From an uncultured Thermoplasmata archaeon (GTDB lineage: Archaea; Thermoplasmatota; Thermoplasmata; Halarchaeoplasmatales; Halarchaeoplasmataceae): a DNA stretch of 64,000 nt. Position 1 is the stretch's first letter. Each line of letters opens with the position of its first letter. The notes below the pieces were generated by a model that was not told where the DNA came from, searched no databases, and worked only from the letters and a program-made list of their open reading frames with translations. The stretch covers positions 85,298-149,297 of the forward strand of contig CAYWJQ010000005.1 in NCBI GenBank assembly GCA_964458595.1, read 5' to 3'. Positions 7,974 to 63,996 of this stretch are shown in pieces. The position numbers and the translations under genes are program-made.

Positions 7974-8180
7974 GCGATTTAAATATTTCGATTACGCCAA
8001 CAACCTTTCATATTCTCTATTTTTTTCTTCATAATTTTTGCCTTGTGAGCACAGCTTTTAAGAAAAATATCACACTTTCTCGGGCACACTCGATCCAAAC
8101 TTATGGTAATCATCCAAAACTTTATTAAGTTTCTTATTCGTACTGAAGGATTCAAAAAAGGTATTTCAGGCAAGATTAAA

Positions 8181-30468: not shown

Positions 30469-32952
30469 TCACATGGATATCGGTATGTTTTCCATCTCTT
30501 TTTCTACTTTCTCGGCCATCCAGTTGGCGCCGCTGCCGGAAAACGATAGGATAGCTTTTCTATAATTTTCCGCTATTCCTTCCTTATTATCTTTACTTTC
30601 CTGAAGTTTAGCCATGGAAAAGTACGCTAATCCGAGTCTATATGAAGAACCGATCCTTTGGTAAATAGATATCGCCTTGGTGAATTGTTCCTCAGCTTTT
30701 TCGGGTTTATCTGCCATCCTGTAAGCCTTGCCGAGCAGCGTGTACGCGTAGGCTTTCTCCTTTTCGTCGTCCAAATCGCCGAGAAGTTCCTTCGCCTCTT
30801 CAGCCGTTTCTATGGCCTTTTCCAACTTATTTTTTTCCAAATAACATTCGGTCAAAGATAATAGGGCGGATGATTTGAGATCCCAATAGCCGAACTTTTC
30901 CGAGGTATCGACGGCATCTTTCAAATAATCCTCCGCATTCTTCAGTTCTCTAAGTATGGTGTATAGAGCCCCTATCTCTTTAAGACCGCCTACTTTCTGA
31001 TACGTTTCTTTTATCTGCTTCCAGTGATCCAATCCTTTCTGAAAGAAGGAAACGGAATCATCCCAATCTCCGTTCAATTTCTTGATCCTGGCGAGCATGA
31101 AGTAAGCCGTCGTCAATAGAGAATGATCATCTTCGCCCAGGGCGTTCAAAGCCTCGTAGAGATTCTCCTCGGCTTCTACACGTTTTCCTCTCTCGTTCAA
31201 TAACGATCCCAACCTGAAGAAGGCTTTTCCCGTGAATTTCTTTCTCTCTGAAGCGGAGTCTATCTCGGCCGCTTTATCTACTGATTTCTTGTATTCGGAG
31301 ACCGCCTGGTCATATTCTTGTCGATTTTCTTTTGTAGAAGCTATCCCCAAGTGAGATCGAACTTCGAGGACCTTGTCTTCCACGTTTTCTATGATCTCAC
31401 GATAAGACTCTAAAGCTCGGTCGTAATCATCCACCTTGCGGGATGCTTCGGCTTTGATGAAACCTATGTGATGATCTTCGGTATTTTTTTCCGTTTCAAA
31501 TCCGTCTATCAGATCTATCACGGTTTCATAATAGCCTGAAGAAACTATCTCTTCACCGTGATCTTTCACCTTTTCCTCGAACAGACCGTATTTGTTCGCG
31601 TTCAAAAGATGATAAAGTTCTTCGAGCTTCTGGCCCGCCTTGGCCATAGGTCTTTCCATATAATATTGAGAAGCGATCTCGTGTAATCGACGCTTATCCT
31701 CCAGCCTCAAGTATTTAACGATCTCTTTTCTTACGACCTTTGGAACTCCGACCTCGTTATCGACCGTGGACTCCATCAAAGGCGTATCCAATATATTGTC
31801 GACCATCTTAGGGGTTACGGTCTCGAGCCGGGTCAGTTCCTTTTTTTTCACCGGTTCTCTGAGGATAGATAGAAGAGCTAAAGACCAAAACTCCTCTTCG
31901 GTGATGTGGTTTTCCAATACTGTCTTCAAAGAATCTATCTCTTCCTGCTCGGAGTAACTATCCCTTAAAGCATCTAAAAAATAATCCTCGTTTTTCAGCT
32001 CTACCGTATAGTGATCGTCTAAGGATATATCATCCATCTCAGGAGAAAGGGCTATAATTGAGATCGTAGTTCCCATATCTAAAGTAACGATGTCTTCTAT
32101 GATTTGAGATATCTCCTCGTTTGAATAGATATCATCGAATATCATCAAGGACTTTATCTCTTTGAGATCTTTCTCTAGATTTGTGATCAAACCTTTTCTA
32201 TCAAGTTTAGCCGTCGATTTGAGATAAGAAGAAAGTCGATGCTGACCGCATAACTCTAAAAATTCAGATATCTTATCCCACAGATGCATCGGTTCCTGCC
32301 AATCCTTCGTTTCAAAATAAAAAACGTTGTTTTTACCGTCCATCTTTTTGGCTAGTTTACTCAAAAGGGTGGTTTTGCCGCTCCCTTCTGGACCCACCAC
32401 CGCTATCAGATCCTCTACATGCTCCCAATTGTCTAAAAGGTCTTCCAATTCAGGTATCGCCCTATCGTCAGGCTCGGGCATCTCGTCGAGATAAGAATCA
32501 GTAGAACCCTGTTCATGTTCACTGTCAAGTTCGAAGATATCTTCTTCTTCAACTTTCCTGATTATATCTAGAACAGAGATATTGGTCTGAAAATAAGTGT
32601 TTATCTCCCCAATATTCATCTTTTTCTTTTCCCCTTCTAGGGAGACTTCTACTTCGGTATTTAGCATCTCGTTTCTGATATCTCTAGCCTTTTTTATCCC
32701 GCTGTCCGTGAGAAAATAGGCCTTTCTCTTCTGTTTTTTTCCCTTGATCCGGCGGGTCTCTTCTTTCATGAAACCATCTTCGACCAATTTTCTCACGGCG
32801 TAAGAAACGGTATTTTGTTTGAGACCGACACTGTCGGCGATACCTTCCTGAGTTATCTCGACCGGAAGTGAATAACCATCTTCCTTTCCGTAATAATCGA
32901 GAATATGTACTATCACTTTTTCCTTTGCGGTGAAGTTTGCATCCATATGCAA
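30469..32952 (-). CDS. STAND-like NTPase with an N-terminal winged HTH, a central archaeal-ATPase (P-loop) domain and C-terminal TPR repeats
   Basis: 827 aa. The wHTH (GIADSVGLKQNTVSYAVRKLVEDGF) is followed by Walker A GPEGSGKTTL and Walker B MIFDDIY, and the C-terminal ~400 aa are TPR-like (repeated A..YY.LG/A.Y). Confidence 0.6.
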   Translation of the reverse strand: MHMDANFTAKEKVIVHILDYYGKEDGYSLPVEITQEGIADSVGLKQNTVSYAVRKLVEDGFMKEETRRIKGKKQKRKAYFLTDSGIKKARDIRNEMLNTEVEVSLEGEKKKMNIGEINTYFQTNISVLDIIRKVEEEDIFELDSEHEQGSTDSYLDEMPEPDDRAIPELEDLLDNWEHVEDLIAVVGPEGSGKTTLLSKLAKKMDGKNNVFYFETKDWQEPMHLWDKISEFLELCGQHRLSSYLKSTAKLDRKGLITNLEKDLKEIKSLMIFDDIYSNEEISQIIEDIVTLDMGTTISIIALSPEMDDISLDDHYTVELKNEDYFLDALRDSYSEQEEIDSLKTVLENHITEEEFWSLALLSILREPVKKKELTRLETVTPKMVDNILDTPLMESTVDNEVGVPKVVRKEIVKYLRLEDKRRLHEIASQYYMERPMAKAGQKLEELYHLLNANKYGLFEEKVKDHGEEIVSSGYYETVIDLIDGFETEKNTEDHHIGFIKAEASRKVDDYDRALESYREIIENVEDKVLEVRSHLGIASTKENRQEYDQAVSEYKKSVDKAAEIDSASERKKFTGKAFFRLGSLLNERGKRVEAEENLYEALNALGEDDHSLLTTAYFMLARIKKLNGDWDDSVSFFQKGLDHWKQIKETYQKVGGLKEIGALYTILRELKNAEDYLKDAVDTSEKFGYWDLKSSALLSLTECYLEKNKLEKAIETAEEAKELLGDLDDEKEKAYAYTLLGKAYRMADKPEKAEEQFTKAISIYQRIGSSYRLGLAYFSMAKLQESKDNKEGIAENYRKAILSFSGSGANWMAEKVEKEMENIPISM

Positions 32953-52696: not shown

Positions 52697-54085
52697 CTAT
52701 TCCGGATAGAACTCGTCTATGTATTTTTGATCTATCCTTTTGAGATCCTTTTTCGGTATCATCGTGAGTAGATCCCAAGCCAGGTCCAATGTTTCCTCAA
52801 TAGTTCGGTCTTCTTCGACACCCTGGTTGATGAATTCCTCCTCGAACTCGTCTGCAAATTCCAGATAAAGTTGATCTCTGTCACTCAGGGCCTCTTCACC
52901 TACGACCGCGACGAGATCACGCAAGTCTAGTCCTTCGGCATATGCGGCGAAGAGTTGATTGCTGACATCGGAATGATCTTTTCTAGTCCTTTCTTCACCG
53001 ATACCTTCTTCCATCAGACGAGACAGGCTTTCACCGGGAGTTATAGGAGGTCTTATCCCCTTTCTATGTAATTCTCTAGAGAATACGAGCTGACCTTCCG
53101 TAATATATCCAGTAAGGTCGGGTATTGGATGAGTTATATCGTCGTCGGGCATGGTTAGTATCGGAATCATGGTTATCGACCCATCTCTGTTCAAAATCCT
53201 TCCCGCTCTTTCGTAGATATTCGCGAGATCGGTGTACATGTATCCGGGATAACCTCTTCTACCGGGGACCTCTTCTCTTGCAGCGGCTATTTCCCTGAGA
53301 GCCTCGCAGTAGTTGGTCATATCCGTCATTATAACGAGGACCTGCATGTCTTCCTCGAACGCCAGGTACTCGGCAGCGGTAAGAGCCATCCTCGGGATGA
53401 TTATCCTTTCGATCGCCGGATCGTCGGCAAGATTCAGGAAAAGAACGGATCTCTCCAGCGCGCCGGTCCTCTCAAAATCGTTTCTAAAGAAGTTAGCTTC
53501 CTCGGCGGTGATGCCCATAGCGCAGAAAACCACGGCGAATTCTTCTTCTTCACCTAGGACCTGGGACTGCCTTGCTATCTGGGCCGCCACGCTGTTATGG
53601 GGTAGACCCGAAGCGCTGAAGATCGGTAATTTTTGTCCTCTTACCAGCGTGAGCATGCCGTCTATAGTGGATATCCCGGTCTGTATGAATTCTCTAGGAT
53701 ATTCCCTCGCTGAGGGATTTATCGGATCGCCGTTGATATTCCTTCTTTCGTCGGGTATGATATCCGGGCTTCCGTCGATCGGTTCTCCGACTCCGTTGAA
53801 TACTCTACCGAGAAGTTCTCTAGAAACACCGAATTTCATGACTTCTCCGGTGAACTGTACGCTGGTTTCATCGGTATCAAGACCTCTAGTTCCCGCGAAT
53901 ACCTGCAGGATGGCTCGGTCGGTTTCGGCTTCGAGTACCTGTCCCATCCTCTCTTCTCCGTTCGGCAATTTGACTTTGGCTATTTCGTCGTATGCGACAT
54001 CGCTTATTCCCTCAACAACCATCAGAGGACCAGAAACTTCAGTAACATTCTGATATTCGGTCCTTTTCGACATCTCATCACTCAT
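52697..54085 (-). CDS. atpB: A1AO (V-type) ATP synthase subunit B
   Basis: 462 aa with full-length similarity to the regulatory B subunit ([19 protein letters not shown]). Confidence 0.95.
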
Positions 54086-54088
54086 GTG

Positions 54089-57000
54089 TTATCCCTCCAA
54101 TTCCTCGCTAACATCATCTTCCGATTCGAGCGCTTCCGGACCCCCTTCGCTTTCCAGCGGAGAGGATAATTCGAGAGAATCTTCTATCTCTTGGAACTCT
54201 TCGTTCATCTTCATCTCGACCTCGCTCGATTTCTCTTCCCATTCATCCTTGGGTATGTTCGATAATCTGCTTATATCCTCTAACACGTCCATCTCGGACA
54301 AAGTATCTACCATGACTCCTTCTTCGATCGCCTGTTGGCCGGTTTCATAGAACTCCATCATTATTTGTAACATCCTGAACTGTTTTTCCGGGGAACAGAA
54401 TGTATCCACGTCGTGGAAAGCGTTCTGCTGTAGGAAATCCTCCCTGATTATCCTAGCGGCCTGAAGAGCGAACTGGTCCGAGGGAGGTAGAGCGTCGGGA
54501 CCTACAAGTTGAACGATCTCTTCGAGTTCGGACTCCTTCTCCAAGAGCCGCATCGTTTCTCTACGCAGGTCTTTCCAGTTCTCGTTCACGTTCTCGTCCC
54601 ACCAGTCTCCCATCTCATCCAGATAAAGTGAATAAGATGTCAACCAGTCGACAGCCGGGAAGTGACGTTTGTTCTTAAGCTCGGTATCCAATGCCCAGAA
54701 GACCTGAACTATCCGGAGGGTGTTCTGGGTGACCGGTTCGGAGAAATCACCGCCGGAAGGACTAACGGCTCCGATGACCGATATGGATCCTTCTCTATCG
54801 CCGTGCAGTTTGCACATGCCGGCTCTCTCGTAGAATGATGCCAGTTCAGAAGCTAGATAAGCCGGAAAACCTTCTTCTCCGGGCATCTCCTCGAGCCTCC
54901 CGGATATCTCTCTCAGAGCTTCGGCCCATCTCGAAGTCGAATCGGCCATGAGAGCGACGTCGTATCCCATATCTCTGTAAAATTCCGCTATAGTGATGCC
55001 GGAAAAAACCGAAGCCTCTCTCGCCGCGACGGGCATATTACTGGTGTTAGCTATGAGAACGGTCCTCTTCATCAAAGGTTCCCCGGACCATGGATCCTCC
55101 AGTTCTGGAAAATCTCTGAGAACTTCTGTCATCTCGTTGCCCCTCTCCCCGCATCCGACGTAAACTACTATATCGGCATCGCTCCATTTGGCCAATTGGT
55201 GCTGAATTACCGTGTTATGGAGGAACATAGGTGCGTTACCTCCCACAAAGTTGTGAGTATCCGGCACCGTCAAGTCAAAAACTTCCTGAGATTCTTCTTT
55301 CATCTCTATCGATTCAACGGGATCAGGTAAAAAATGATCTAAATGGTTCTCTGCTATGCTCTTCAAATCTTCATCTGCGGTCATAGAGGAGAATTTCCTA
55401 AATATTGGAACACTCATCTTTTCTTCCTGAGTGGTGTAATTCGCTACCTTTATTCCATTTTCTTTGAATTCTTTTCTAGGAACGCCGCTGTTTTCGAATT
55501 TCTCCTGCACCATTTCGGGGGAGACATTTACCGCATTCACTCCTCTAAAATGTTCACTGTCCTTTTCTAGATATCTTTTTATTTTTTCGTACTTTTGATG
55601 ATCTATAGATGTTTTTTCGTAGAAATTTTCTAGTTCTTCCCCAGAAACCCTTATCCTGTAGCTTTCATTAGCTCGGGTCTCTTTCGAGGAGAGTCTCGGC
55701 AGAACGGCGATCCTTGTCAAAGCATAAGTGAGGTCGCTAGCCATCTCTTCACTCGAAGTATTTATTTCGACTTCATATTTAGAAAAACTCCCATCGGCTA
55801 GATAATAACCTCTTACAAAGGCAGCTATCGCCTCTTCTCCGCTTTTAAAGACTTTGCTCGGGATGCTACAATTTCTCGACTTGACTTCTTCCGGGAATCC
55901 TAAAGATACTAGCAGATCCCTAAGTGTTTTACAGTTTACTTTTACTGAATCAACCGTTCGAGCGTGCTCCCTTTCTGCTTCTAAATCGAAAAGTTTGTAG
56001 AATAGTTCTTCTACTCTTGACAAAAGCTCTTCATCGTTGTTGTAAAAGTGTATCGAAGTCGGCTTTAAACTGCCGTCTCCAAGCAAAAGACCTAATAGTT
56101 CCGCAAAGTCTTCATCGATATTTTCTGGGACCTTTATGGGAGTAGACCTCCTCTCACCTTTTACTTTCCTTATCTGATGATCGATTTCGTTCTGTTCGAA
56201 GATATCCTTAGCAACTTTGACTTTTGGCCTATTCCTTCCAAGGGCATATTCAGTAAGAACGTCCTCGCTTACATCCAATCTCTCAGCTAACTCCTTCCTA
56301 CTGCCTAATTTCTTTTCTAGTTCATCTATGCTACTAATTACCTTTTCAAAGTCTTCACCATGGACCCTTTTCTCTGGCAATAAGTCTACTGTAGTCAATT
56401 TTTGCTCTCCTGTTTTTTCGTCCAAAGAGAGTTTTCTTGGAACCAAGAGAGTGTCCTCTTGTTCTATCTCTCGAGCTGGTTTCTCCACGATCTCCATCTC
56501 AGGGGTCAGAACAAACAGTTTATGGACTGGCGTAATCTCAACTTCACGACCCGACTTGGTTTTTATCACGACGGTCGAATCAGTCTTACCTTTGTAAAGA
56601 CACGTCGCCTCTTTTTCAGATATCTCTCCATCATCCATGGATAATATCTCGAGGGGGCGGTCTAGTTCGATCAATTCTTCCTCACCGTCTACTTTCTTCT
56701 TCCCTTTTTCCTTATACTTTTCGTATATATCTTCTATAGGTTCTTTTGATCCATCAGCGAATAGCATGGGTGTATCGCCAGTTACGCATTTCCCGGTCCC
56801 GAAGCCCCCGGGGATAGCGGCTGTTCCGCCTTTAGCGATGGGGAAGAAAGTATCCAATACTCTCTGACCGGTAACGAGGAGTTCGCCCGGCTGTTTTTTA
56901 TCTTGTATCGGTCTGCCTATCCTGACAGGCCATCTCTGCTTCATGCTTATCTCTTCTTCACCATCTTTGTTCTCTAAAACCGCTATAGTCTCGTTGATCG

Positions 57001-57556
57001 TATAATCGCCTTCAGGAACTATCTCCTTGATAGTACCTTCAGTATCAGGAGGCACCATCACCTTATGATCTACGGTAGGAGTCTCTTCGACTATACCTAA
57101 AATATCTCCATGTTCGACCTCTTCCCCTTCTTCAGCTTTGGGTTTGAACTCCCATTCTTTTTCCTCGTCCAGTGGAGATACGTCGATACCTCTTCGGATG
57201 AAATCGCCGGTCTTCTCGACTATACTCTGAAGGGGTCTCTGGATGCCGTCATAGATCTGCTCTATGAGACCTGGGCCCAGTTCTAAAGATAAAGGTTCGC
57301 CCGTTCTCTTCACTGGTTCTCCCGGCTTGACTCCGCCGGTTTCTTCGTACACCTGGATAGTCGCGACGTCTTCTTCGAGCTCGATAACTTCGCCTATAAG
57401 ACCTTCTTCACCGACTTCTACGACCTCGTACATCTCCACGCCCTGTAGGTTATCGGCCTCTACGACCGGGCCGGCCACGTGGATAATCCTACCTTCACCC
57501 TCTTCTTCATCGGGTTTTTCGATCTTGCTTATACTTTCCTCAGCTTCTTCTACCAT
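54089..57556 (-). CDS. atpA: A1AO (V-type) ATP synthase catalytic subunit A, containing an intein
   Basis: The 1155-aa ORF gives exteins of 256 plus 374 aa with A-subunit motifs. The P-loop GGFGTGK|C is interrupted, and the extein resumes at HN|[10 protein letters not shown]. Confidence 0.95.
55214..56788 (-). mobile_element. Intein (525 aa) with a LAGLIDADG homing-endonuclease domain, inserted in the atpA P-loop (the VMA-a site)
   Basis: Begins with Cys right after GGFGTGK and ends ...FLHN, followed by Thr. Two LAGLIDADG blocks ([11 protein letters not shown] and GYYLADGSF) lie between the Hint N- and C-terminal splicing blocks. Confidence 0.85.
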
Positions 57557-57614: not shown

Positions 57615-57965
57615 TCATTTTTCCTCCTTCGAATCTTGAGTATTGACGTCTATACCGACGGCTCTTTTGATCTTGCCTTTTAGAGGATCCTCTTTTTCTT
57701 CTAACGGACCTCCTTTGTCGGGTATCTCTACTATTACGGGATAGACATCATCTCTTCTTTTCTTCTTTTCATCCAGATGTTCTCTAATTTTTTTCGCGAT
57801 CTGTTCGGATAACAGTATGACCCCTATCTCGGGTGACTCTATCAATTTATCTATCCTCTTCTTTATCTCGTATTCATCCTGAGGCGAGAATACTTCGTCC
57901 ACGCCCGCGAGCGAAAAGCCGAGAGTCATATCCTCCTTACCCACCACGACTACCTTCTTCCTCAT
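57615..57965 (-). CDS. atpF: A1AO ATP synthase subunit F
   Basis: 116 aa with VVVVGKEDMTLGFSLAGV, typical of subunit F. Confidence 0.85.
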   Translation of the reverse strand: MRKKVVVVGKEDMTLGFSLAGVDEVFSPQDEYEIKKRIDKLIESPEIGVILLSEQIAKKIREHLDEKKKRRDDVYPVIVEIPDKGGPLEEKEDPLKGKIKRAVGIDVNTQDSKEEK

Positions 57966-59098
57966 GTGTTTTCCTCCATGATCATCAGTTCTTTTATCCT
58001 GTCCGAGTCGAGCTCTTCACGGAGACCCCTTATCAAAGTCTTCAGATTTCTCAATTCCACGTCTTTGGAAACTAGATATTTTATTATCGGCCCCACGGTC
58101 AAGATCTGCTGGCTGGATATCTCGGATACGATATCTAACAGCCTCTTATCCAGATATTTTTCCAGGTCGAAATCTGACATCGAAGTACCTTCGGTCCTGA
58201 GGTCTTCATAAGAAGTCCCTTCTAGTTCCACCATCGCCTCTTCCGCGTTATTCGAATCAATCATGTCTTCCAGCTTCCACTCTTCGAGCTCCCTGCCCGA
58301 GGGTAGTAGAGAATCCTTTATCTCTTCTTTATCGACGTCTTCCCTCAATCCTCTGAACACTATCTTTAGATTGGATATATCAGTATATCTGCCGAAGAAA
58401 TACTTCACGTGAGCTTTCTCCTCGGTACCGACTTTCATCACCGCTTGTCTCATCTTTTCGAAGATGAATCGATCGAGAGCCACATCCATGCCGAAGAAAT
58501 CGTCCTCCCAATCTCTACCGGCTAGAACCTCTTCGAACTCGGTGTCTTTCAGTACACCCATCACTTCTTGAAGATTCGTCGCGGAGGCGATCTCGTCTAT
58601 CATCTCTTCGTCCAAGGCCTTGACCGGATATAATTTACGCAGAATCTCTTCTTTTTCTTTGCCTCTAGCGACCCCCTTCACGGCCCTCTTTATCATCTTT
58701 ATATCGTATCTTTTGATCCAAACGTTGACCAGAGGTTTCGCATTCTCAGGTGAGGCCACGTAAGCTTTTTTCAAGAGCTCTATCGTTTCTTTTTCCAGGT
58801 GCTCCTCCACATCGCCGATATCTTCTAGACCTTCTTTCGGGATCTGATAGTTGTTCTCCCTGATCTTGGAATAGATTTCGTTTATATTCTTGCTTTCTGT
58901 CAAGGGTTCTAGCTCCTCTTTTTTGACGAACGGATTACCGTGAGCTCTGAATTTAGCGTTAGGGTAAGTGAAACTCGCTATAGTGATCAGCTGTCTGAAG
59001 TAGCTCATCAACAGAACTACAACTATAAGTAAGGATAAACCGACTATTATCAGCACCAGATTGGGCAGTCCTACGGTACTCAATAATTCTTCCAGCAA
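57962..59098 (-). CDS. atpC: A1AO ATP synthase subunit C (d)
   Basis: 378-aa helical protein at the conserved operon position between E and F. Its stop overlaps the atpF start. Confidence 0.8.
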   Translation of the reverse strand: MLEELLSTVGLPNLVLIIVGLSLLIVVVLLMSYFRQLITIASFTYPNAKFRAHGNPFVKKEELEPLTESKNINEIYSKIRENNYQIPKEGLEDIGDVEEHLEKETIELLKKAYVASPENAKPLVNVWIKRYDIKMIKRAVKGVARGKEKEEILRKLYPVKALDEEMIDEIASATNLQEVMGVLKDTEFEEVLAGRDWEDDFFGMDVALDRFIFEKMRQAVMKVGTEEKAHVKYFFGRYTDISNLKIVFRGLREDVDKEEIKDSLLPSGRELEEWKLEDMIDSNNAEEAMVELEGTSYEDLRTEGTSMSDFDLEKYLDKRLLDIVSEISSQQILTVGPIIKYLVSKDVELRNLKTLIRGLREELDSDRIKELMIMEENT

Positions 59099-59101
59099 CT
59101 A

Positions 59102-59680
59102 TTAGTCCTCCGGAAACAGTATTTCGGATATTTCCTTTCTAAGTTCTTTCTTATTCCTTTCGATATTGGCCTCGAAAGTGAAGTCTATTTCAGCCCCTTT
59201 CTTCGAGGTCGCTTTGATACCGCCCAAGGAGTTGAGACCACCCTCGATATCCAAGGAGGGATCGAACTCCCGAGCTATACTTTGAACTTCATCCACGCTT
59301 TCTTCGTTACAGTGGATCACTATATCTTCTCCCAAAACTTGCATGGATTTCTTTATAGACTTTTTCAAATACTCTTCATATTCTGAAGGATCCAACTCTT
59401 CTAGGCGTTCTCTAGCTCTTTTGAATACTCGTTCGATCATCTCTTCTCTGATATTCATCTTTTTCTTTCGAGATTCCAATTTGGCTTGAGAGAGGATCCT
59501 GTTCTCCATCGTCTCTATCTCTCTCTTTTCCTTTTTCCTGATCTCGTCCAGTCTTCTCTCTTTCTCCTTCTCGATCTCCTGTCTGACCTCTTCTGCCTCT
59601 TCTTCTTTTCTCTCTAGTATCTCCTCTGCTTTTCTCTCGGCGTCTTTTTTGATCCTTTCGATTAATTTTTCAACTGGCAT
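59102..59680 (-). CDS. atpE: A1AO ATP synthase subunit E
   Basis: 192 aa with a long charged N-terminal coiled coil and a globular C-terminal domain, at the conserved operon position. Confidence 0.8.
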   Translation of the reverse strand: MPVEKLIERIKKDAERKAEEILERKEEEAEEVRQEIEKEKERRLDEIRKKEKREIETMENRILSQAKLESRKKKMNIREEMIERVFKRARERLEELDPSEYEEYLKKSIKKSMQVLGEDIVIHCNEESVDEVQSIAREFDPSLDIEGGLNSLGGIKATSKKGAEIDFTFEANIERNKKELRKEISEILFPED

Positions 59681-59690
59681 TTTAGATTCC

Positions 59691-61589
59691 TCACATAAAT
59701 CCTAGGAAGACTATTATGAAGATAGCTATCAAGAGACCAAATATCGCGAAGGTCTCGGACATCACACTGAAGATCATCCCTTTACCGAACGTCTCTTCAC
59801 GCTTCGATACGGCGGCTATCGCCGAACCCGATGTTATACCTTGACCGACACCGGAAACACCGGCGATACCTATAGCCAAGCCGGCTCCTACTGCTGCGAT
59901 ACCCATCTGGACTCCGGCTCCTGCGGGATAAACCTGGCTGAGCATACCGCTGAAGACCATCAGTAATATCGCGATCAGCATGCCGTAGATGGCTTGCGTT
60001 TCGGGAAGTACCGAGAACACCATACCTCTACCGAACATCCCTTCGTCTTCAGCTACGGTCGCTATACCGCTGGCGGAGGCTATGCCCTGTCCTATACCGG
60101 AAAGACCGGCGACGCCCACGGAAAGACCCGCACCGACACCGACTAATCCAAGGAACACCTGTATATCAGAGGAAGCATTCACCAGGCCCGCCTGTCCTAA
60201 CAGTCCGCTAAATATCATCAATAATATCGCGATCAGCATGCCGTAGATAGCCTGCGTTTCGGGAAGTACTGAGAACACCATGCCTCTGCCGAATATCTCT
60301 TCCTTTTCCGCAACACTGCCTATCCCACTGGCGGCCGCGATACCTTGTCCTATACCGGAAAGACCGGCGACACCGACGGCAAGACCGGCGCCTATACCTA
60401 TCAGACCTAGACTGTAACCTGATATACCTTTCATAGCTTCGATAGCCGAACCGCCGAGTAAACCAGAGAATACCATGAGCAGTATCGCGATCAGCATACC
60501 GTAGATCGCCTGAGTCTCTGGAAGGACTGAAAACACCATGCTCTTACCGAATAGATCCTCATTCTCCGCGACACCGCCGATACCCGCTCCGGCGGCTATG
60601 CCTTGACCTATACCGGACAACCCCGCGACACCGACCGCTAAGCCTGCTCCTATCGATATGACGGCTAGGCCTAAACCTTTAGGACCGAGCATGGCTTCGG
60701 AGATCCCGCCTCCGAGTAAGCCGGTGAAGACCATAATGAGTATACCTATCAGGAGACCGTAGATGGCTTGCGTTTCGGGAAGTACTGAGAACACCATACC
60801 TCTACCGAACAGTTCTTCTTTCTCGCTGTAGGCGGCGATACTGCCTGATGCGGCGACGCCCTGTCCGATAGCCGACAGGCCAGCGACACCGACGGCAAGT
60901 CCAACCCCCACGGAAGTTATCCCCACGGGGAGCGAAAGATAGTCTCCCCCGCCGATTATCCCCGTGAACAACAACAATAACACCGCGGTCAGCAGACCGT
61001 AGATGGCTTGAGTTTGAGGTAAAGCCTGGAATACGAGACATTTGCCGAATTTGCCGGGTTTTTCGGCTATAGTTCCAGCACCGGCGGCGCCCGCTATACC
61101 TACACCTATTCCGGCCCCCATCCCGGCGATACCGACTGCTAGACCCGCACCGAGCGCGGTAAGGAAGGTCCCTCTCTCATCTTTCACGGCTTCCACATTT
61201 AAAGTGTCAGTATATGTTTTATCACCGTAAGTGACCCTAAGAGTGACGTTGAAAACTTTCTTATTATTGTCTTCTCCAAGTTTGAACATATGGTCGACCT
61301 TTTTTCCGGTAGTGCTCGAACCGTTTTCAAATATCCATTCGATCTTGGACGGTTCTCCGGACGGAGTATCCTTAGAGCGGTAAGATAGAGTAAGATTGTT
61401 GCCTTCGCTCTTTTTTATGTAAAGCTTGGTATGGTTACCTACGTCTTCCCCGTTGACCAAGATATCCACTTTACCCTGCTCCTGTCCCTGGGCGTTTCCA
61501 GTCGGCGCTATACCGAGAAGCAAGATCAGAGCGACGACCATTATTGATATGTAACTTATCTTCACAGCTTTCCCTTTCAATAAATTCAT
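59691..61589 (-). CDS. atpK: A1AO ATP synthase proteolipid subunit K (c), sextuplicated (6 hairpins), with an N-terminal signal peptide and an ectodomain of about 110 aa
   Basis: 632 aa. There are six repeats of the c-subunit hairpin (...FG(R/K)GMVFSVLPETQAIYG(M/L)LIAILLMVF...). Five of them keep the ion-binding carboxylate (PETQ or SETF) and the first has PQTQ. The N-terminus is MNLLKGK + hydrophobic + NAQG, followed by a Thr/Lys/Asn-rich domain with NxT/S sequons. The nucleotide sequence shows ~250-bp repeats with long identical tracts. Confidence 0.8.
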   Translation of the reverse strand: MNLLKGKAVKISYISIMVVALILLLGIAPTGNAQGQEQGKVDILVNGEDVGNHTKLYIKKSEGNNLTLSYRSKDTPSGEPSKIEWIFENGSSTTGKKVDHMFKLGEDNNKKVFNVTLRVTYGDKTYTDTLNVEAVKDERGTFLTALGAGLAVGIAGMGAGIGVGIAGAAGAGTIAEKPGKFGKCLVFQALPQTQAIYGLLTAVLLLLFTGIIGGGDYLSLPVGITSVGVGLAVGVAGLSAIGQGVAASGSIAAYSEKEELFGRGMVFSVLPETQAIYGLLIGILIMVFTGLLGGGISEAMLGPKGLGLAVISIGAGLAVGVAGLSGIGQGIAAGAGIGGVAENEDLFGKSMVFSVLPETQAIYGMLIAILLMVFSGLLGGSAIEAMKGISGYSLGLIGIGAGLAVGVAGLSGIGQGIAAASGIGSVAEKEEIFGRGMVFSVLPETQAIYGMLIAILLMIFSGLLGQAGLVNASSDIQVFLGLVGVGAGLSVGVAGLSGIGQGIASASGIATVAEDEGMFGRGMVFSVLPETQAIYGMLIAILLMVFSGMLSQVYPAGAGVQMGIAAVGAGLAIGIAGVSGVGQGITSGSAIAAVSKREETFGKGMIFSVMSETFAIFGLLIAIFIIVFLGFM

Positions 61590-63772
61590 TCCATCACGTC
61601 CTTTTCAAGTTTTGTGTGTTCCCTTTCTGATCTGAATGGAGTAAAGGGAGAACCTCCACCTTCATAAAAGTAGCCGAAGAATTCGACATATTGTAATCGT
61701 AAGGAATGGACGAAGGCACCTAAAGCCTGAAGAACGGCGTTGGCGAGGTGACCTCCAATGATGATGATCAATCCTAGTATGTAGAAAGGCGCTGAGGCGC
61801 TTATGATACCCAAATAACCTAAACCACCTAGAGCGCCCATCAGAAGTATAAGCGATCCGACTCCCTGGTACATCTTGTTTTTATCCATGAAGCCCTTAAG
61901 TATCACCGCAGCTCCCGCGATCAGTAAGATCACGGTCAAGTATATCGGCATCTTGGCAGCGGTGATGAGATCAGCTAAAACGTTGACGGTCAGGGCTATA
62001 CCCGAAGTGGCGAGGCCCAACGCCAAAATCCTAGAGAATGATAGGAAGTCTCCGATGAATCCGGTGAGTTCAAAGAAAGATAATCCTTTTGCCCTGATCA
62101 CCATGAGTGCAAGACCAATGGCGGATAAAACACCAGCTCCAAGATAAATAGTGGGATTATACACTGATGTAAATTGTTCCCATCCGAACAATTTACCAGA
62201 AAGAAGTATGAATCCGCCGGGTTCTAAAGTCCACCAAGATATGTTTTCGATCAATATCTGTCTGTAATTCCCTCTTTTGAAGTGTTGGACGACTTGGAGT
62301 ATCATACCCAAGTTCAGATAAGCCAAACCGATCAGGAGAGAGATGACCAACAGGGTCAGCGGTCCCTGACCTTCCAAGGTCTGAAGTATGGCGGAATCGT
62401 TGATGAACCCGAGTCCTATCCTACCCATGAGGTTGGGATGTGAACCCTTGCTGGGGCCTAAATAACCTCCCTGCAGCACTCCGAAAATGACGGTAGAGGC
62501 CCCCGTAGCTAACAGTAAATAACCGAATTCTTTAGTTCCCTGCTCTACCTTCCCGATCCCCTTGATAAGGACGATAGAGGTGATCATTATCAAGATACCA
62601 TAGACCGCATCACCCAGCATCAGGCCGAAAAACAGAACGAAAGCCGGAGCCAAAATAAGCGTGGGATCGACTTCGTCGTAGTTCGGTGGGGCGAACATAT
62701 TGGTCAATATCTCGAACGGTTTTATGGGCTTTGGATTATCGAGCGAGACCGGGACTTCGTCGGGATCCTCGGGCTCCTCTTCCACGACTTCGGCATGACC
62801 CTCGGAATTCTCCAGCACCGTCTTTTCCACCTTGTCGACTTGGTCTTCAGGCGTCCAAGCCTTGATAACGCTGGTCTGATCCGTCATGCCGAAGTTCTTA
62901 GACACCTCTTTCTTATTTCTATATATGTTCAATTCTTCCCTTAGAACCAGATAATCCTTCTCCCACTCCTCTTTCATCTCATTCAATTCTTCTTCTAGAG
63001 TGACTTTCTTCTCTTTGAGTTCTTTTATTTTAGTGTAAACATTTCCCAGAGCCTCTTTGGGATGCCCTTTCAAACGATCGATATCCAATTTCTTAAAATT
63101 ACCCTCGCGGAGAGCGGCTTCGAATTCTTCTTTTTTGCGGATATGAACTCCGGTGATAACAACGTATTCATCCTCGCCTATCTGGTTTATAGAATAAAAC
63201 GATTCATCTATCTCCGACATCGCTCTTTTGAATTTGACAGGACTGGATATCTTTCCTATCCTTATGTCCGTGAAAGAAGAATCTTGAAGCATCGACAGGT
63301 CTACATCCAGATCCTCTATTTTGGTCAGATCTTCTTTTAAGGACTCCAGATCTTCCAATTCCTCTTCGATATCGGAAAGTTCCTCGTCTATATCTTTTAT
63401 CTTTTCTCCGCTATTTTCGACGAGGTCGTCTATCTCTTCGAATATACTGGAAAGATCCTTCTTTTCTCTCTTAACTTTCTCTATCTCGGAAGGGTTGATC
63501 ATCTCACCTAAACTTTCATCTTCCTCTTCAACCCTACCGAAAGTATCAAGAATAGAAGCCAATTTCATGTCGTAATCCGTGCATTTCCCGATAACTTCGG
63601 GAATACTGCCCTTTTCTTCCTCCAATGCTTCAAAAACCTCTTCATCTCTATCTACGGAGGTGATCTCGGCTATCCCCCTTTCGTGCAGGGAGTCGACCAC
63701 TTCGTCTATGTAATCGGCGTGTACGACGATAGTGAGATCTTTCATCCGCTCGGGAAAGAGCACTCTTCTCAT
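61586..63772 (-). CDS. atpI: A1AO ATP synthase subunit I (a)
   Basis: 728 aa with an N-terminal soluble coiled-coil domain and a C-terminal polytopic membrane domain. It overlaps both atpK and atpH. Confidence 0.9.
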   Translation of the reverse strand: MRRVLFPERMKDLTIVVHADYIDEVVDSLHERGIAEITSVDRDEEVFEALEEEKGSIPEVIGKCTDYDMKLASILDTFGRVEEEDESLGEMINPSEIEKVKREKKDLSSIFEEIDDLVENSGEKIKDIDEELSDIEEELEDLESLKEDLTKIEDLDVDLSMLQDSSFTDIRIGKISSPVKFKRAMSEIDESFYSINQIGEDEYVVITGVHIRKKEEFEAALREGNFKKLDIDRLKGHPKEALGNVYTKIKELKEKKVTLEEELNEMKEEWEKDYLVLREELNIYRNKKEVSKNFGMTDQTSVIKAWTPEDQVDKVEKTVLENSEGHAEVVEEEPEDPDEVPVSLDNPKPIKPFEILTNMFAPPNYDEVDPTLILAPAFVLFFGLMLGDAVYGILIMITSIVLIKGIGKVEQGTKEFGYLLLATGASTVIFGVLQGGYLGPSKGSHPNLMGRIGLGFINDSAILQTLEGQGPLTLLVISLLIGLAYLNLGMILQVVQHFKRGNYRQILIENISWWTLEPGGFILLSGKLFGWEQFTSVYNPTIYLGAGVLSAIGLALMVIRAKGLSFFELTGFIGDFLSFSRILALGLATSGIALTVNVLADLITAAKMPIYLTVILLIAGAAVILKGFMDKNKMYQGVGSLILLMGALGGLGYLGIISASAPFYILGLIIIIGGHLANAVLQALGAFVHSLRLQYVEFFGYFYEGGGSPFTPFRSEREHTKLEKDVME

Positions 63773-63996
63773 ACCTCCGTTACCTTGTCTAAAACATGTT
63801 CTACGGCATCGGATATATTCTCTTCAGTGGATCTCTTGATCCTTTCACTTTCCTCTTCCGCTTCCTTCTTTATCTTTTCGGCCCTCTTTTCGGCCTCTTC
63901 CTTCGCTTCTTTCTTCTTCTCTTCATACTCTTTTCTCAGCGAAAATAGCGCGTCCTCTTTTTCTTGTTGAGCCTCTTCCTTCGCTCTTTCCACCAT
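63769..63996 (-). CDS. atpH: A1AO ATP synthase subunit H (the 5' end may extend beyond the window)
   Basis: A charged coiled-coil (AEKRAEKIKKEAEEESERIK) small protein at the head of the atpHIKECFAB operon. The window ends 4 nt upstream of the first ATG. Confidence 0.65.
   Translation of the reverse strand: MVERAKEEAQQEKEDALFSLRKEYEEKKKEAKEEAEKRAEKIKKEAEEESERIKRSTEENISDAVEHVLDKVTEV

What the first reader, a model, noticed from the sequence alone, without database searches (positions are those of the whole stretch)
59691..61589. Rotor proteolipid with six fused hairpins and an exported N-terminal ectodomain
Archaeal K/c subunits are usually a single hairpin of about 8 kDa, and multi-hairpin fusions are known in a few methanogens. 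Here the one polypeptide carries six hairpins, about 12 TM helices. Hairpin 1 has lost the ion-binding Glu (PQTQ), while hairpins 2-6 keep it, which changes the ion-to-ATP stoichiometry of the ring. The chain starts with a cleavable-looking signal peptide (hydrophobic core, then NAQ|G). An ectodomain of about 110 aa follows; it is beta-rich, Thr/Lys/Asn-rich and carries several N-glycosylation sequons. c-subunit termini face the non-cytoplasmic side, so the ectodomain would decorate the outer face of the rotating ring. I know of no described A/V-ATPase proteolipid with such a domain. The hairpin copies also share long identical nucleotide tracts, e.g. ccgtagatggcttgcgtttcgggaagtac at about 59990 and about 60760. 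That points to recent duplication or concerted evolution, and it means the copy number may be mis-assembled.
Basis: partly seen in the sequence, partly recalled or inferred. Interest (0 to 1): 0.75.

Follow-up and report, generated by a model that had tools for sequence, protein, structure and literature searches.

The report
ATP synthase rotor subunit carrying an exported PKD domain
The membrane rotor subunit of this archaeon's ATP synthase is a real fusion of six rotor hairpins preceded by a secreted immunoglobulin-like (PKD) domain, an architecture conserved in dozens of related salt-lake archaea but, as far as I could find, never described in a paper.

Summary
ORF 59691-61589 (-) encodes a 632-aa subunit K of an A-type ATP synthase. 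It lies between subunits I and E in an H-I-K-E-C-F-A-B operon. It has a Sec-type signal peptide, a PKD (Ig-like) domain and six proteolipid hairpins. Hairpin 1 lacks the carboxylate (PQTQ); hairpins 2-6 keep it.

It is not an assembly artefact. About 60 homologues from independent assemblies have the same N-terminal domain and operon position. Each window hairpin matches its positional orthologue best.

The six-hairpin pattern (PQTQ, PETQ x4, S/AETF) also occurs, without the PKD domain, in cultured Methanomicrobiales. PKD-bearing relatives have 2, 3, 4, 6 or 12 hairpins, including tandem 6+6 single chains. This suggests a 12-hairpin ring: here two protomers, ten ion sites and two PKD domains.

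All five Na+ ligands of Enterococcus hirae NtpK are conserved. The PKD domain joins inner helix 1 through a 2-3-residue linker, so it should sit over the outer mouth of the ring and rotate with it. Its function is unknown; a cap is my inference.

This is a new variant of a known kind.

The parts
59691..61589 (-). atpK/ntpK: 632-aa subunit K (proteolipid) precursor of the A1AO ATP synthase
61485..61589 (-). Signal peptide, about aa 1-33/35 (n-region MNLLKGKAVK, h-region ISYISIMVVALILLLGIA, c-region PTGNA|QG|)
   Evidence: Read directly from the sequence. The same n/h/c layout is present in 57 homologues. AF2 gives low confidence here. Cleavage is inferred, not tested.
61179..61475 (-). PKD (Ig-like beta-sandwich) ectodomain, aa about 39-137, with sequons N52, N65, N89, N114
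61164..61178 (-). Conserved junction K-D-E-R-G(-T-F-L-T) linking the last beta-strand to inner helix 1
   Evidence: (K/E/T)D(E/T/N/Q)RG(T/M)(F/Y)L(T/A) is conserved across the halophilic clade. In the AF2 model strand 124-136 is followed by helix 139-176, a 2-residue linker. The 12-hairpin relative shows the same arrangement.
60933..61163 (-). Hairpin 1 (aa 143-219). No ion site: Q192 replaces Glu and V163 replaces the helix-1 Gln. It keeps L190, T193 and Q194, which serve the site of hairpin 2.
   Evidence: Alignment to NtpK (L61/T64/Q65).
60690..60920 (-). Hairpin 2 (aa 224-300), site residues Q243, E272, T273, Q274
   Evidence: Q243 aligns with NtpK Q110 and E272 with NtpK E139.
60432..60662 (-). 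Hairpin 3 (aa 310-386), site residues Q329, E358
60177..60404 (-). Hairpin 4 (aa 396-471), site residues Q415, E444. There is a sequon at N471 in the following outer loop.
59925..60146 (-). Hairpin 5 (aa 482-555), site residues Q501, E530
59694..59900 (-). Hairpin 6 (aa 564-632), site residues Q583, E612. The motif SETF has F614 in place of the Gln that would feed the next (absent) site.
   Evidence: NtpK has VETY at the equivalent place.
61586..63772 (-). Subunit I (stator a-subunit homologue). Its stop codon overlaps the K start codon (ATGA).
   Evidence: PF01496. Junction sequence.
63769..63996 (-). Subunit H (peripheral stalk), first gene of the operon seen in the window
   Evidence: ORF. 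Matched by tblastn upstream of I in 35 related loci.
59102..59680 (-). Subunit E
   Evidence: ORF. Syntenic in the related loci. PF01991 in L042 and L044.
57962..59098 (-). Subunit C (d-like rotor socket that sits on the cytoplasmic face of the K ring)
   Evidence: ORF. Syntenic. PF01992 in L042 and L043.
57615..57965 (-). Subunit F
   Evidence: ORF. Synteny.
54089..57556 (-). Catalytic subunit A, interrupted by an intein with a LAGLIDADG endonuclease (aa 266-781)
   Evidence: Pfam.
52697..54085 (-). Subunit B
   Evidence: Pfam.

Best explanation
SHOWN. The gene encodes the only proteolipid (subunit K) of an A1AO ATP synthase operon in a halophilic Thermoplasmata archaeon. The precursor has three parts: a Sec-type signal peptide, one PKD-fold domain, and six covalently fused two-helix hairpins (12 TM helices).

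INFERRED TOPOLOGY. The signal peptide drives export of the PKD domain and is cleaved near A33-G35. The hairpin loops (AEKPGKFGK and similar, K/R-rich) face the cytoplasm and dock subunit C. The termini and the inter-hairpin loops face outward.

INFERRED RING. Two protomers close a 12-hairpin ring. The argument is comparative. Relatives carrying the same N-domain have 2, 3, 4, 6 or 12 hairpins. Three of the 12-hairpin forms are exact tandem 6+6 versions of this protein, with a single PKD domain.

ION SITES. Each site is built as in Enterococcus hirae NtpK. The Glu (outer helix) and the Gln (inner helix) come from hairpin i. A Leu carbonyl, a Thr and a Gln come from the outer helix of hairpin i-1. 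Sites 2-6 are complete. Site 1 is dismantled at three positions: E to Q192, Q to V163, and Q to F614 in hairpin 6 of the neighbouring protomer. The ring would therefore carry 10 ions per turn, about 3.3 per ATP, most likely Na+.

PKD DOMAIN. It is tied by a 2-3-residue conserved linker to the N-terminus of helix 1. By analogy with all solved c/K rings this is an inner-ring helix. The two glycosylated PKD domains should therefore sit over the extracellular mouth of the ring near the rotation axis and turn with the rotor. I propose that they cap or shield the lipid-filled central pore. This would be a covalent counterpart of the luminal domains of Ac45/ATP6AP1 and ATP6AP2 on eukaryotic V-ATPase c-rings. 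The last step is the weakest.
For: Identity and context. Six PF00137 domains. The operon order H-I-K-E-C-F-A-B is seen in the window and in about 36 related loci. This is the only ATP-synt_C gene in the window. Structural matches are NtpK and V-ATPase c subunits.

The fusion is real and selected. There is an ATGA overlap with subunit I. Sixty N-domain-bearing homologues come from independent assemblies. In the PKD region pN is 0.155 against pS 0.75 versus the closest relative.

PKD assignment.

Export. The signal-peptide layout is present in 57 homologues, and sequon density in the ectodomains is about ten times that of cytoplasmic subunits.

Ion site. NtpK residues L61/T64/Q65/Q110/E139 align with L190/T193/Q194/Q243/E272. 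These residues are invariant in 46 sequences. PMC2359735 and PMC3604715 describe the NtpK site as built within a four-helix bundle.

Ring size. The hairpin numbers 2, 3, 4, 6 and 12 are listed. P0121-P0123 read (PQTQ PETQ x4 SETF) x2. The AF2 model of P0121 has pTM 0.86.

Linker.

The central hole of c/K rings is filled by lipid (PMC3604715).
Against: No experiment and no model coordinates were available. Ring closure, protomer number and the position of the PKD domain were therefore not measured.

Known A/V rings range from 12 to 20 hairpins (T. thermophilus c12; E. hirae K10 equals 20 hairpins). Three protomers (18 hairpins) is therefore possible, and the 2-hairpin relative need not form a 12-hairpin ring.

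One homologue has 5 hairpins (P0036), although it sits on a 2.5-kb contig at 3x coverage.

PKD copy number per ring would vary from 1 to 6 among relatives, which argues against a strict stoichiometric plug.

Signal-peptide cleavage was not tested; no predictor was available.

The window's own PKD score is below Pfam's gathering threshold (20.8 against 27 bits).

Na+ versus H+ cannot be decided from ligands alone.

Only 64 kb of the genome was seen, so a second K paralogue elsewhere, giving a hybrid ring as in Acetobacterium woodii, cannot be excluded.
Confidence: 0.6

Rival explanations
1. The N-terminal hydrophobic segment is not cleaved. It stays as a 13th transmembrane helix (signal anchor, N-in) and packs inside the ring lumen. 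This would resemble TM1 of eukaryotic subunit c'' (Vma16) or the TM helices of Voa1/Ac45. The PKD domain would then be held by two membrane tethers.
For: The h-region is 15-22 residues long in all homologues, long enough to span a membrane. AF2 predicts a helix at residues 10-26. The topology (N-in, PKD out, helix 1 running out-to-in) is self-consistent. There is a precedent for extra helices inside V-type rings (own knowledge of c'' and Voa1; subunit composition in PMC10352029).
Against: A helix-breaking Pro or Gly followed by small residues at -3/-1 (AxA-like: ASA|Q, VEA|Q, GNA|Q) is conserved across 57 homologues, as in cleaved Sec signal peptides. The segment evolves fast (26-71% identity against 82-96% for the TM core). 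AF2 places it with pLDDT 24-49 in both models.
Confidence: 0.2
2. The ring contains three protomers (18 hairpins, 15 sites, 5 ions per ATP), or another number, rather than two.
For: Solved A/V rings reach 20 hairpins (E. hirae K10). A high ion/ATP ratio would suit an energy-limited anaerobe. Nothing measured here fixes the stoichiometry.
Against: Close relatives (63-70% identical) encode a tandem 6+6 single chain and other 12-hairpin chains, with orthologous I and C partners. Single-chain rotors in other archaea have 12-13 hairpins (M. kandleri 13, PMC2359735). The T. thermophilus ring has 12 (entries 6qum and 5gar list 12 K chains each).
Confidence: 0.2
3. The PKD domain is not a pore cap. 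It acts as a topogenic or assembly device, or as a binding module. A Sec-dependent start could force the N-out orientation of a very hydrophobic multi-hairpin chain. Alternatively the domain could bind glycans, envelope components or the outer loops of subunit I.
Against: Methanomicrobiales insert the same six-hairpin chain without any such domain, so it is not needed for topogenesis. A stable attachment to a static partner is incompatible with rotation. The conserved short linker and the conserved VDILVxGED and DERG motifs suggest a fixed position relative to the ring.
Confidence: 0.3
4. The ORF is an assembly or annotation artefact: collapsed or expanded repeats, or an upstream gene fused by a frameshift.
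For: Internal 258-nt periodicity and a 29-nt exact repeat. Repeats can mislead short-read assemblers. One relative on a contig at 3x coverage has an odd count of 5 hairpins.
Against: Copies are 42-76% identical in DNA, far too divergent to collapse. Hairpins show positional orthology across species. Thirty-three independent six-hairpin homologues carry the domain, including a closed 5.16-Mb chromosome. The ATGA start/stop overlap with subunit I is conserved. An identical protein is already in NCBI (P0001).
Confidence: 0.02

Closest known systems
Six-hairpin subunit K of Methanomicrobiales (for example Methanofollis fontis P0101, Methanocalculus taiwanensis P0108, about 482-484 aa; annotated 'V-type ATP synthase subunit K')
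   Same: Six hairpins with the same site pattern: PQTQ, PETQ x4, (S/A)ETF. Identity over the membrane part is 56-62%.
   Different: No signal peptide and no PKD domain. The first hairpin starts at about residue 10. These proteins are annotated in genomes, but reviews that list 1, 2, 3 or 13 hairpins do not discuss them (PMC9171764).
Enterococcus hirae NtpK (PDB 2BL2), Na+-binding V-type K ring
   Same: It is the best structural match. A hairpin without carboxylate is followed by one with it. All five Na+ ligands align. The terminal motif lacks the Gln where the next site is absent (VETY against SETF).
   Different: It has two hairpins and one site per chain, 10 chains and 20 hairpins per ring, and no ectodomain.
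Methanopyrus kandleri subunit K (13 hairpins, deduced monomeric rotor; Lolkema and Boekema 2003, cited in PMC2359735)
   Same: Many covalently fused hairpins, each with a complete Na+ motif. Identity is 49-53%.
   Different: A whole ring in one chain, all 13 sites kept, and no exported domain. The window protein is at most half a ring.
Methanocaldococcus jannaschii triplicated proteolipid
   Same: A multi-hairpin chain. By my recollection of Ruppert et al. 1999 it has one fewer carboxylate than hairpins (not checked here). The triplication itself is cited in PMC2359735.
   Different: Three hairpins and no ectodomain.
Ac45/ATP6AP1 (yeast Voa1) and ATP6AP2 of eukaryotic V-ATPases
   Same: Glycosylated non-cytoplasmic domains that sit on the far face of the c-ring and rotate with it (own knowledge of the 2018-2020 cryo-EM structures; subunit composition in PMC10352029). 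This is the only known precedent for a rotor ring carrying an ectodomain.
   Different: They are separate polypeptides anchored by their own TM helices inside the ring. They do not have a PKD fold and are not homologous. Here the domain is fused to the proteolipid itself. The relation is analogy, not family membership.
PKD domains of archaeal and bacterial surface proteins (for example Methanosarcina S-layer protein 1L0Q, ColH 4U7K)
   Different: They usually occur in tandem arrays in large secreted proteins. Here there is a single copy fused to a rotary-motor subunit. The window copy has a degenerate signature (WIFENGSS).

Membership tests
A/V-type ATPase proteolipid, subunit K/c (Pfam PF00137) | Two-helix hairpin matching the ATP-synt_C profile above the curated threshold | tested here: met
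   312 bits against a cut-off of 24, six stretches. Six HMM domains.
A/V-type ATPase proteolipid, subunit K/c (Pfam PF00137) | Membrane-embedded carboxylate in the outer (second) helix | tested here: met
   E272, E358, E444, E530 and E612 in hairpins 2-6. Hairpin 1 has Q192.
A/V-type ATPase proteolipid, subunit K/c (Pfam PF00137) | Encoded in the ATPase operon next to the stator subunit I/a | tested here: met
   Order H-I-K-E-C-F-A-B. The same order is found in related loci.
A/V-type ATPase proteolipid, subunit K/c (Pfam PF00137) | Fold superposable on solved K/c subunits | tested here: met
A/V-type ATPase proteolipid, subunit K/c (Pfam PF00137) | Assembles into a ring that rotates against subunit I | not testable with these tools
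   Needs biochemistry or cryo-EM.
Na+-binding K/c subunits (NtpK-type site) | Full ligand set equivalent to NtpK L61, T64, Q65, Q110, E139 | tested here: met
   L190, T193, Q194, Q243 and E272 align residue by residue. The equivalent residues are invariant in hairpins 2-6 across 46 sequences. The ligand list is recalled from Murata et al. 2005. Glu139 as the principal ligand is confirmed in PMC2359735.
Na+-binding K/c subunits (NtpK-type site) | Na+-dependent activity or Na+ protection from DCCD | not testable with these tools
   Experimental.
PKD domain (PF18911 / PF00801) | Profile match above Pfam's gathering score | tested here: inconclusive
   The window copy scores 20.8 bits against a cut-off of 27, E 3.9e-4. 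All 32 orthologous N-domains in A1 match PKD_4, best E 2.4e-17; 30 match PF00801. phmmer of the window domain hits multi-PKD proteins, E 6e-20 to 1e-13.
PKD domain (PF18911 / PF00801) | Ig-like beta-sandwich superposable on solved PKD domains | tested here: met
PKD domain (PF18911 / PF00801) | WDFGDG-type signature | tested here: inconclusive
   The window has W-I-F-E-N-G-S-S. The 84-90% identical orthologues (L001, P0007, P0008) have W-D-F-G-D-G.
Sec-type cleavable signal peptide | Positive n-region, hydrophobic h-region, c-region with small residues at -3/-1 | tested here: met
   Found by inspection and a hydropathy scan in the window and 57 homologues. No dedicated predictor was available.
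Sec-type cleavable signal peptide | Actual cleavage and export | not testable with these tools
   Indirect support only: about ten-fold sequon enrichment in the ectodomain.
Monomeric single-chain rotor (Methanopyrus kandleri type) | All hairpins of a complete ring (12-13) in one polypeptide | tested here: not met
   Six hairpins. The relatives P0121-P0124 do have 12.
V-ATPase ring-associated accessory subunits (Ac45/ATP6AP1, Voa1, ATP6AP2) | Separate type-I membrane protein whose TM helix sits inside the c-ring | tested here: not met
   Here the ectodomain is part of the proteolipid chain. No such proteins appear among the structural matches listed. It is a functional analogy only.

The most novel reading that the evidence does not exclude
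A clade of Thermoplasmatota builds an ATP synthase rotor that carries covalently attached, glycosylated Ig-like domains on its extracellular face. This would be the first such case in a prokaryotic rotary ATPase, and a convergent counterpart of the Ac45/ATP6AP2 luminal cap of eukaryotic V-ATPases. The same clade packages a constant 12-hairpin ring as 6x2, 4x3, 3x4, 2x6 or 1x12 hairpin chains, losing one site per repeat unit. That gives a natural series of rotors with 6, 8, 9, 10 or 11 ion sites (2 to 3.7 ions per ATP) on otherwise orthologous enzymes.
Probability: 0.35. Interest if true: 0.8.

Novelty: new variant of a known kind. Interest (0 to 1): 0.66.

Why it matters
Rotor rings of F-, A- and V-type ATPases are thought of as bare membrane cylinders. 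The only known decorations are separate accessory subunits in eukaryotic V-ATPases. A proteolipid with its own exported PKD domain, conserved and under purifying selection, raises several questions:

- What does the far face and the central pore of the ring need?
- How are very hydrophobic multi-hairpin chains inserted into the membrane?
- How does a rotor tolerate a glycosylated appendage?

The family also offers a natural experiment on the ion-to-ATP ratio. Orthologous enzymes appear to differ in the number of hairpins per chain (2, 3, 4, 6, 12) and therefore in the number of lost sites. That speaks to the long-running debate on how archaea tune coupling stoichiometry near the thermodynamic limit (Muller laboratory, PMC9171764).

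In practice, automatic annotation names many of these genes only 'PKD domain-containing protein'. Metabolic reconstructions of these MAGs could therefore wrongly report a missing subunit K.

Tried and rejected
- A word-index homology search with the N-terminal 149 aa alone returned nothing, not even the identical database protein. This is a limit of the tool, not biology. The exhaustive phmmer search with aa 36-165 replaced it.
- The exact-sequence look-up of P0001 found no contig on record, so the window's own source sample is not named. Taxonomy is inferred from neighbours.
- Model coordinates are not exposed to scripts and the afdb50 library was unavailable. I could not measure whether the 12-hairpin model closes into a ring or where the PKD domain sits. 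I rely on pTM, secondary structure, linker length and the known inner/outer helix arrangement.
- I looked for recent duplication or gene conversion. Only hairpins 4/5 and 2/5 show mildly raised third-position identity (0.62-0.63). Positional orthology rules out recent events.
- dN/dS could not be computed properly because synonymous sites are saturated even against the closest relative. Only pN and pS are reported.
- The weak PF22619 (DNA_polI_exo1) hit at aa 417-453 is rejected as noise. It lies inside a hairpin and is below threshold.
- The 'divisor of 12' rule has one exception, the 5-hairpin P0036. I discounted it because of 3x coverage on a 2.5-kb contig, but I did not disprove it.
- Literature searches for PKD plus proteolipid/subunit K, for 'six hairpins', and for Methanomicrobiales c-subunit hairpins gave no relevant paper. 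Subscription-only papers are outside the library, so absence of a description is not proven.
Full report
WHAT IS THERE

The window carries a complete A-type ATP synthase operon on the minus strand:
- H, 63769-63996
- I, 61586-63772 (PF01496)
- the flagged ORF, 59691-61589
- E, 59102-59680
- C, 57962-59098
- F, 57615-57965
- A, 54089-57556, interrupted by an intein
- B, 52697-54085

The flagged ORF starts at an ATG that overlaps the stop codon of subunit I (…GTG ATG GAA TGA / ATG AAT…). It encodes 632 aa. Pfam finds six ATP-synt_C domains (E 4.5e-95) and a weak PKD_4 match at aa 61-131 (20.8 bits, below the cut-off of 27). An HMM built from the hairpins finds exactly six domains. No other proteolipid gene is present in the 64 kb.

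CHECKING THE DETAILS OF THE OBSERVATION

The outer-helix motifs read PQTQ, PETQ, PETQ, PETQ, PETQ, SETF. Hairpin 1 therefore lacks the carboxylate and hairpins 2-6 keep it, as reported.

The N-terminus has a Lys-rich n-region, a hydrophobic core and P-T-G-N-A-Q-G. The AlphaFold2 model (46-sequence alignment A1; pLDDT 86.2, pTM 0.83) shows:
- a low-confidence N-terminal helix;
- an eight-strand beta-sandwich at residues 40-136;
- only two residues later, a 38-residue helix that opens twelve transmembrane helices.

It encodes part of the invariant VLPETQAIYG motif.

IS IT AN ARTEFACT? NO.

- Hairpin copies are 26-78% identical in protein and 42-76% in DNA. Third-position identity at conserved residues is 0.36-0.63. 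The repeat finder sees 67-81% identity over 208 nt at a 258-nt period.
- Each window hairpin is most similar to the hairpin at the same position in four other species (0.78-1.00, against 0.45-0.86 for the next best). The six-fold structure therefore predates these species.
- A database search returned an identical NCBI protein. It also returned about 40 proteins of 595-653 aa at 51-84% identity with PF00137 plus PKD families.
- A scan of one genome per species gave 36 related Thermoplasmata loci. In all of them the gene lies between I and E. Where I checked (L001, L002, L042), the same 4-nt overlap with I is present.
- One of these loci is a closed 5.16-Mb chromosome, CP070751.1.
- Against the closest relative (L001), the PKD region has pN 0.155 and pS 0.75, and the membrane part has pN 0.029. 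The domain is under purifying selection, though it evolves about five times faster than the rotor core.

WHO CARRIES IT

The nearest loci are MAGs from soda-lake and salt-lake sediments. They are labelled Thermoplasmata or Thermoplasmatota, Candidatus Saliniplasma, Ca. Natronoplasma and Ca. Haladaptatiplasma. This fits the very acidic proteins of the window. A second, less acidic Thermoplasmata group (P0066-P0084, including CP070751.1) has the same fusion at 51-57% identity.

THE N-TERMINAL DOMAIN IS A PKD DOMAIN

- All 32 N-domain-bearing members of A1 match PKD_4 (best E 2.4e-17). Thirty match PF00801 and 13 match the K319L-like PKD family.
- An exhaustive phmmer search with the window's own residues 36-165 hits giant multi-PKD proteins (for example 1861 aa with 16 matched stretches, E 6e-20).
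- The window copy has a degenerate signature (WIFENGSS). The 84-90% identical orthologues keep WDFGDG.

EXPORT

Fifty-seven homologues share the n/h/c layout, with a Pro or Gly break and small residues at -3/-1. N-x-S/T sequons occur at 3.15 per 100 aa in the ectodomains, against 0.33 in the cytoplasmic ATPase subunits of the window. The hairpin loops are K/R-rich and the inter-hairpin loops are not (direct reading). This agrees with the established topology of c/K subunits, with loops in and termini out. Cleavage itself is not tested.

THE ION SITES

phmmer against solved structures aligns hairpins 1-2 with E. hirae NtpK (E 2.5e-16). NtpK L61, T64, Q65, Q110 and E139 correspond to L190, T193, Q194, Q243 and E272. 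In NtpK one Na+ is bound within a four-helix bundle made of two hairpins (PMC2359735; PMC3604715).

Read this way, every Glu-bearing hairpin of the window protein receives Thr and Gln from the preceding hairpin. It also has its own inner-helix Gln (invariant G-Q-G). The missing site 1 is dismantled at all three places:
- Q192 instead of Glu;
- V163 instead of the inner-helix Gln;
- F614 instead of Gln in hairpin 6, which would abut hairpin 1 of the next protomer.

NtpK shows the same logic (PGTQ … VETY). That coherence is good evidence that hairpin 6 packs against a hairpin 1 in a closed ring, and that five Na+-type sites per chain are functional. Na+ coupling remains an inference.

HOW MANY CHAINS PER RING

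The pattern PQTQ, PETQ x4, (S/A)ETF is also found in 480-486-aa K subunits without any N-terminal domain. These come from cultured Methanomicrobiales (Methanofollis, Methanocalculus, Methanomicrobium). Six hairpins are therefore not new to the databases. However, a 2022 paper from the Muller laboratory still lists only 1, 2, 3 or 13 hairpins (PMC9171764).

Among PKD-bearing K subunits the hairpin counts are:
- 4 hairpins in 21 proteins;
- 6 hairpins in 33 proteins;
- 12 hairpins in 4 proteins;
- 3 hairpins in L034 and P0146;
- 2 hairpins in P0193, which lies in an I-K-E-C-F-A context.

Three of the 12-hairpin proteins are exact tandem repeats of the six-hairpin unit with a single PKD domain. 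One reads 6+3+3, and one has eleven sites. The AF2 model of the tandem form is confident (pLDDT 87, pTM 0.86). Single-chain rotors in other archaea have 12-13 hairpins.

The simplest reading is a 12-hairpin ring. For the window protein that means two protomers, ten sites and about 3.3 ions per ATP.

Caveats:
- A/V rings of 20 hairpins exist.
- One 5-hairpin homologue breaks the rule, on a 3x-coverage contig.
- I could not inspect coordinates.

WHERE THE PKD DOMAIN SITS AND WHAT IT MAY DO

In every solved c/K ring the first helix of a hairpin lines the inside of the ring (established knowledge; Murata 2005 for NtpK). The PKD domain is joined to that helix by a 2-3-residue conserved linker, D-E-R-G. 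It should therefore stand over the extracellular mouth of the ring, close to the axis. There it can rotate without meeting subunit I, which contacts the outside of the ring.

The central hole of such rings is filled by lipid. I propose that the domains cap or shield this opening. The only precedent for a rotor ring with non-cytoplasmic domains is the eukaryotic V-ATPase. There, the separate subunits Ac45/ATP6AP1 (Voa1 in yeast) and ATP6AP2 sit in and on the ring (composition in PMC10352029; their position is from my own knowledge of the cryo-EM structures). This is analogy, not homology.

The proposed function is the weakest step. The number of PKD domains per ring would vary from one to six among relatives. 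Methanomicrobiales manage without the domain. One relative tolerates an insertion of about 170 aa within it (P0033/L011).

RIVALS

- An uncleaved signal anchor acting as a 13th helix inside the ring, like c'' (0.2).
- A ring of three protomers (0.2).
- A per-chain topogenic or binding role for the PKD domain rather than a cap (0.3).
- An assembly artefact (0.02).

VERDICT

The core interpretation is right. The 'recent duplication / mis-assembly' part is wrong.

The protein is a member of the subunit K family and a new architectural variant of it. The sequences are already in public databases, often named only 'PKD domain-containing protein'. Four full-text searches found no paper describing the fusion or six-hairpin K subunits.

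Interest is moderately high for two reasons. A rotary-motor rotor with its own exported Ig-like domain is unexpected. The family's 2/3/4/6/12-hairpin series also makes the question of tunable ion/ATP stoichiometry directly testable.

Noticed in passing
window 54089-57556 (-): Catalytic subunit A is 1155 aa because an intein with a LAGLIDADG homing endonuclease is inserted at aa 266-781 (Intein_splicing 1e-21, LAGLIDADG_3 2.8e-18). In the related loci the best tblastn segment for A ranges from about 1 kb to the full 3.4 kb, which may reflect variable intein presence or sequence.
   Followed up: partly
window 8103-13565 (+): An 1820-aa protein combines an Lhr-type helicase (DEAD, Helicase_C, WH_Lhr, DEAD_assoc) with a C-terminal AlkZ-like DNA glycosylase domain.
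   Followed up: no
window 30469-32952 (-): An 827-aa STAND-type NTPase (NB-ARC/AAA_22) with a long TPR array, a signalling or defence-like architecture.
   Followed up: no
L015 1192-4548, L016 5217-8579, L018 7986-11339, L019 7902-11462 (P0121-P0124): Close relatives encode single-chain 12-hairpin K subunits with one PKD domain. Two are exact tandem 6+6 repeats, one reads 6+3+3, and one has 11 Glu-bearing hairpins. Ring composition appears to be evolving quickly in this clade.
   Followed up: partly
L043 1659-2456 (P0193); P0146; L034 7995-9092: There are PKD-fused K subunits with only 2 hairpins (V-type-like, one site) or 3 hairpins. The 2-hairpin and L034 forms lie in the same operon position.
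   Followed up: partly
L011 7278-9695 (P0033, 805 aa): An acidic, internally repeated insertion of about 170 aa lies inside the PKD domain of an otherwise 79%-identical six-hairpin K subunit.
   Followed up: no
L012 8001-9944 (Ca. Saliniplasma halalkaliphilum HAP6, P0038): The PKD signature is duplicated in tandem (EVKWEFGDGD EVKWEFGDGD). This is either a small in-frame duplication or an assembly stutter.
   Followed up: no
P0013, P0028, P0125-P0129, P0011, P0127 (12-13-hairpin K of Nanoarchaeota/DPANN-like MAGs): These single-chain rotors have N-terminal tails of 60-100 aa that are extremely rich in N-x-S/T sequons. They have no obvious signal peptide or folded domain. This may be a different way of decorating the outer face of the ring.
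   Followed up: no
P0130-P0134 (Promethearchaeota MAGs, about 1110-1150 aa): Asgard-lineage K subunits with about 15 hairpin domains in one chain, by my hairpin HMM count. They are about 32-35% identical to the Thermoplasmata proteins.
   Followed up: no
L031 (JBKHKA010000017.1): The contig is labelled 'Candidatus Aenigmatarchaeota archaeon'. It carries a four-hairpin PKD-K gene whose product equals P0088, which NCBI names Candidatus Natronoplasma sp. A binning or taxonomy label is probably wrong.
   Followed up: no
L042 15425-17863 (CP070751.1): Directly downstream of the ATPase operon lies a protein of more than 1835 aa made of many PKD repeats. It could be a source of the PKD module or a partner for it.
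   Followed up: no
window 60177-60179 region (aa N471, N-A-S): A fifth sequon lies in the predicted extracellular loop between hairpins 4 and 5, so the ring face itself may be glycosylated.
   Followed up: no
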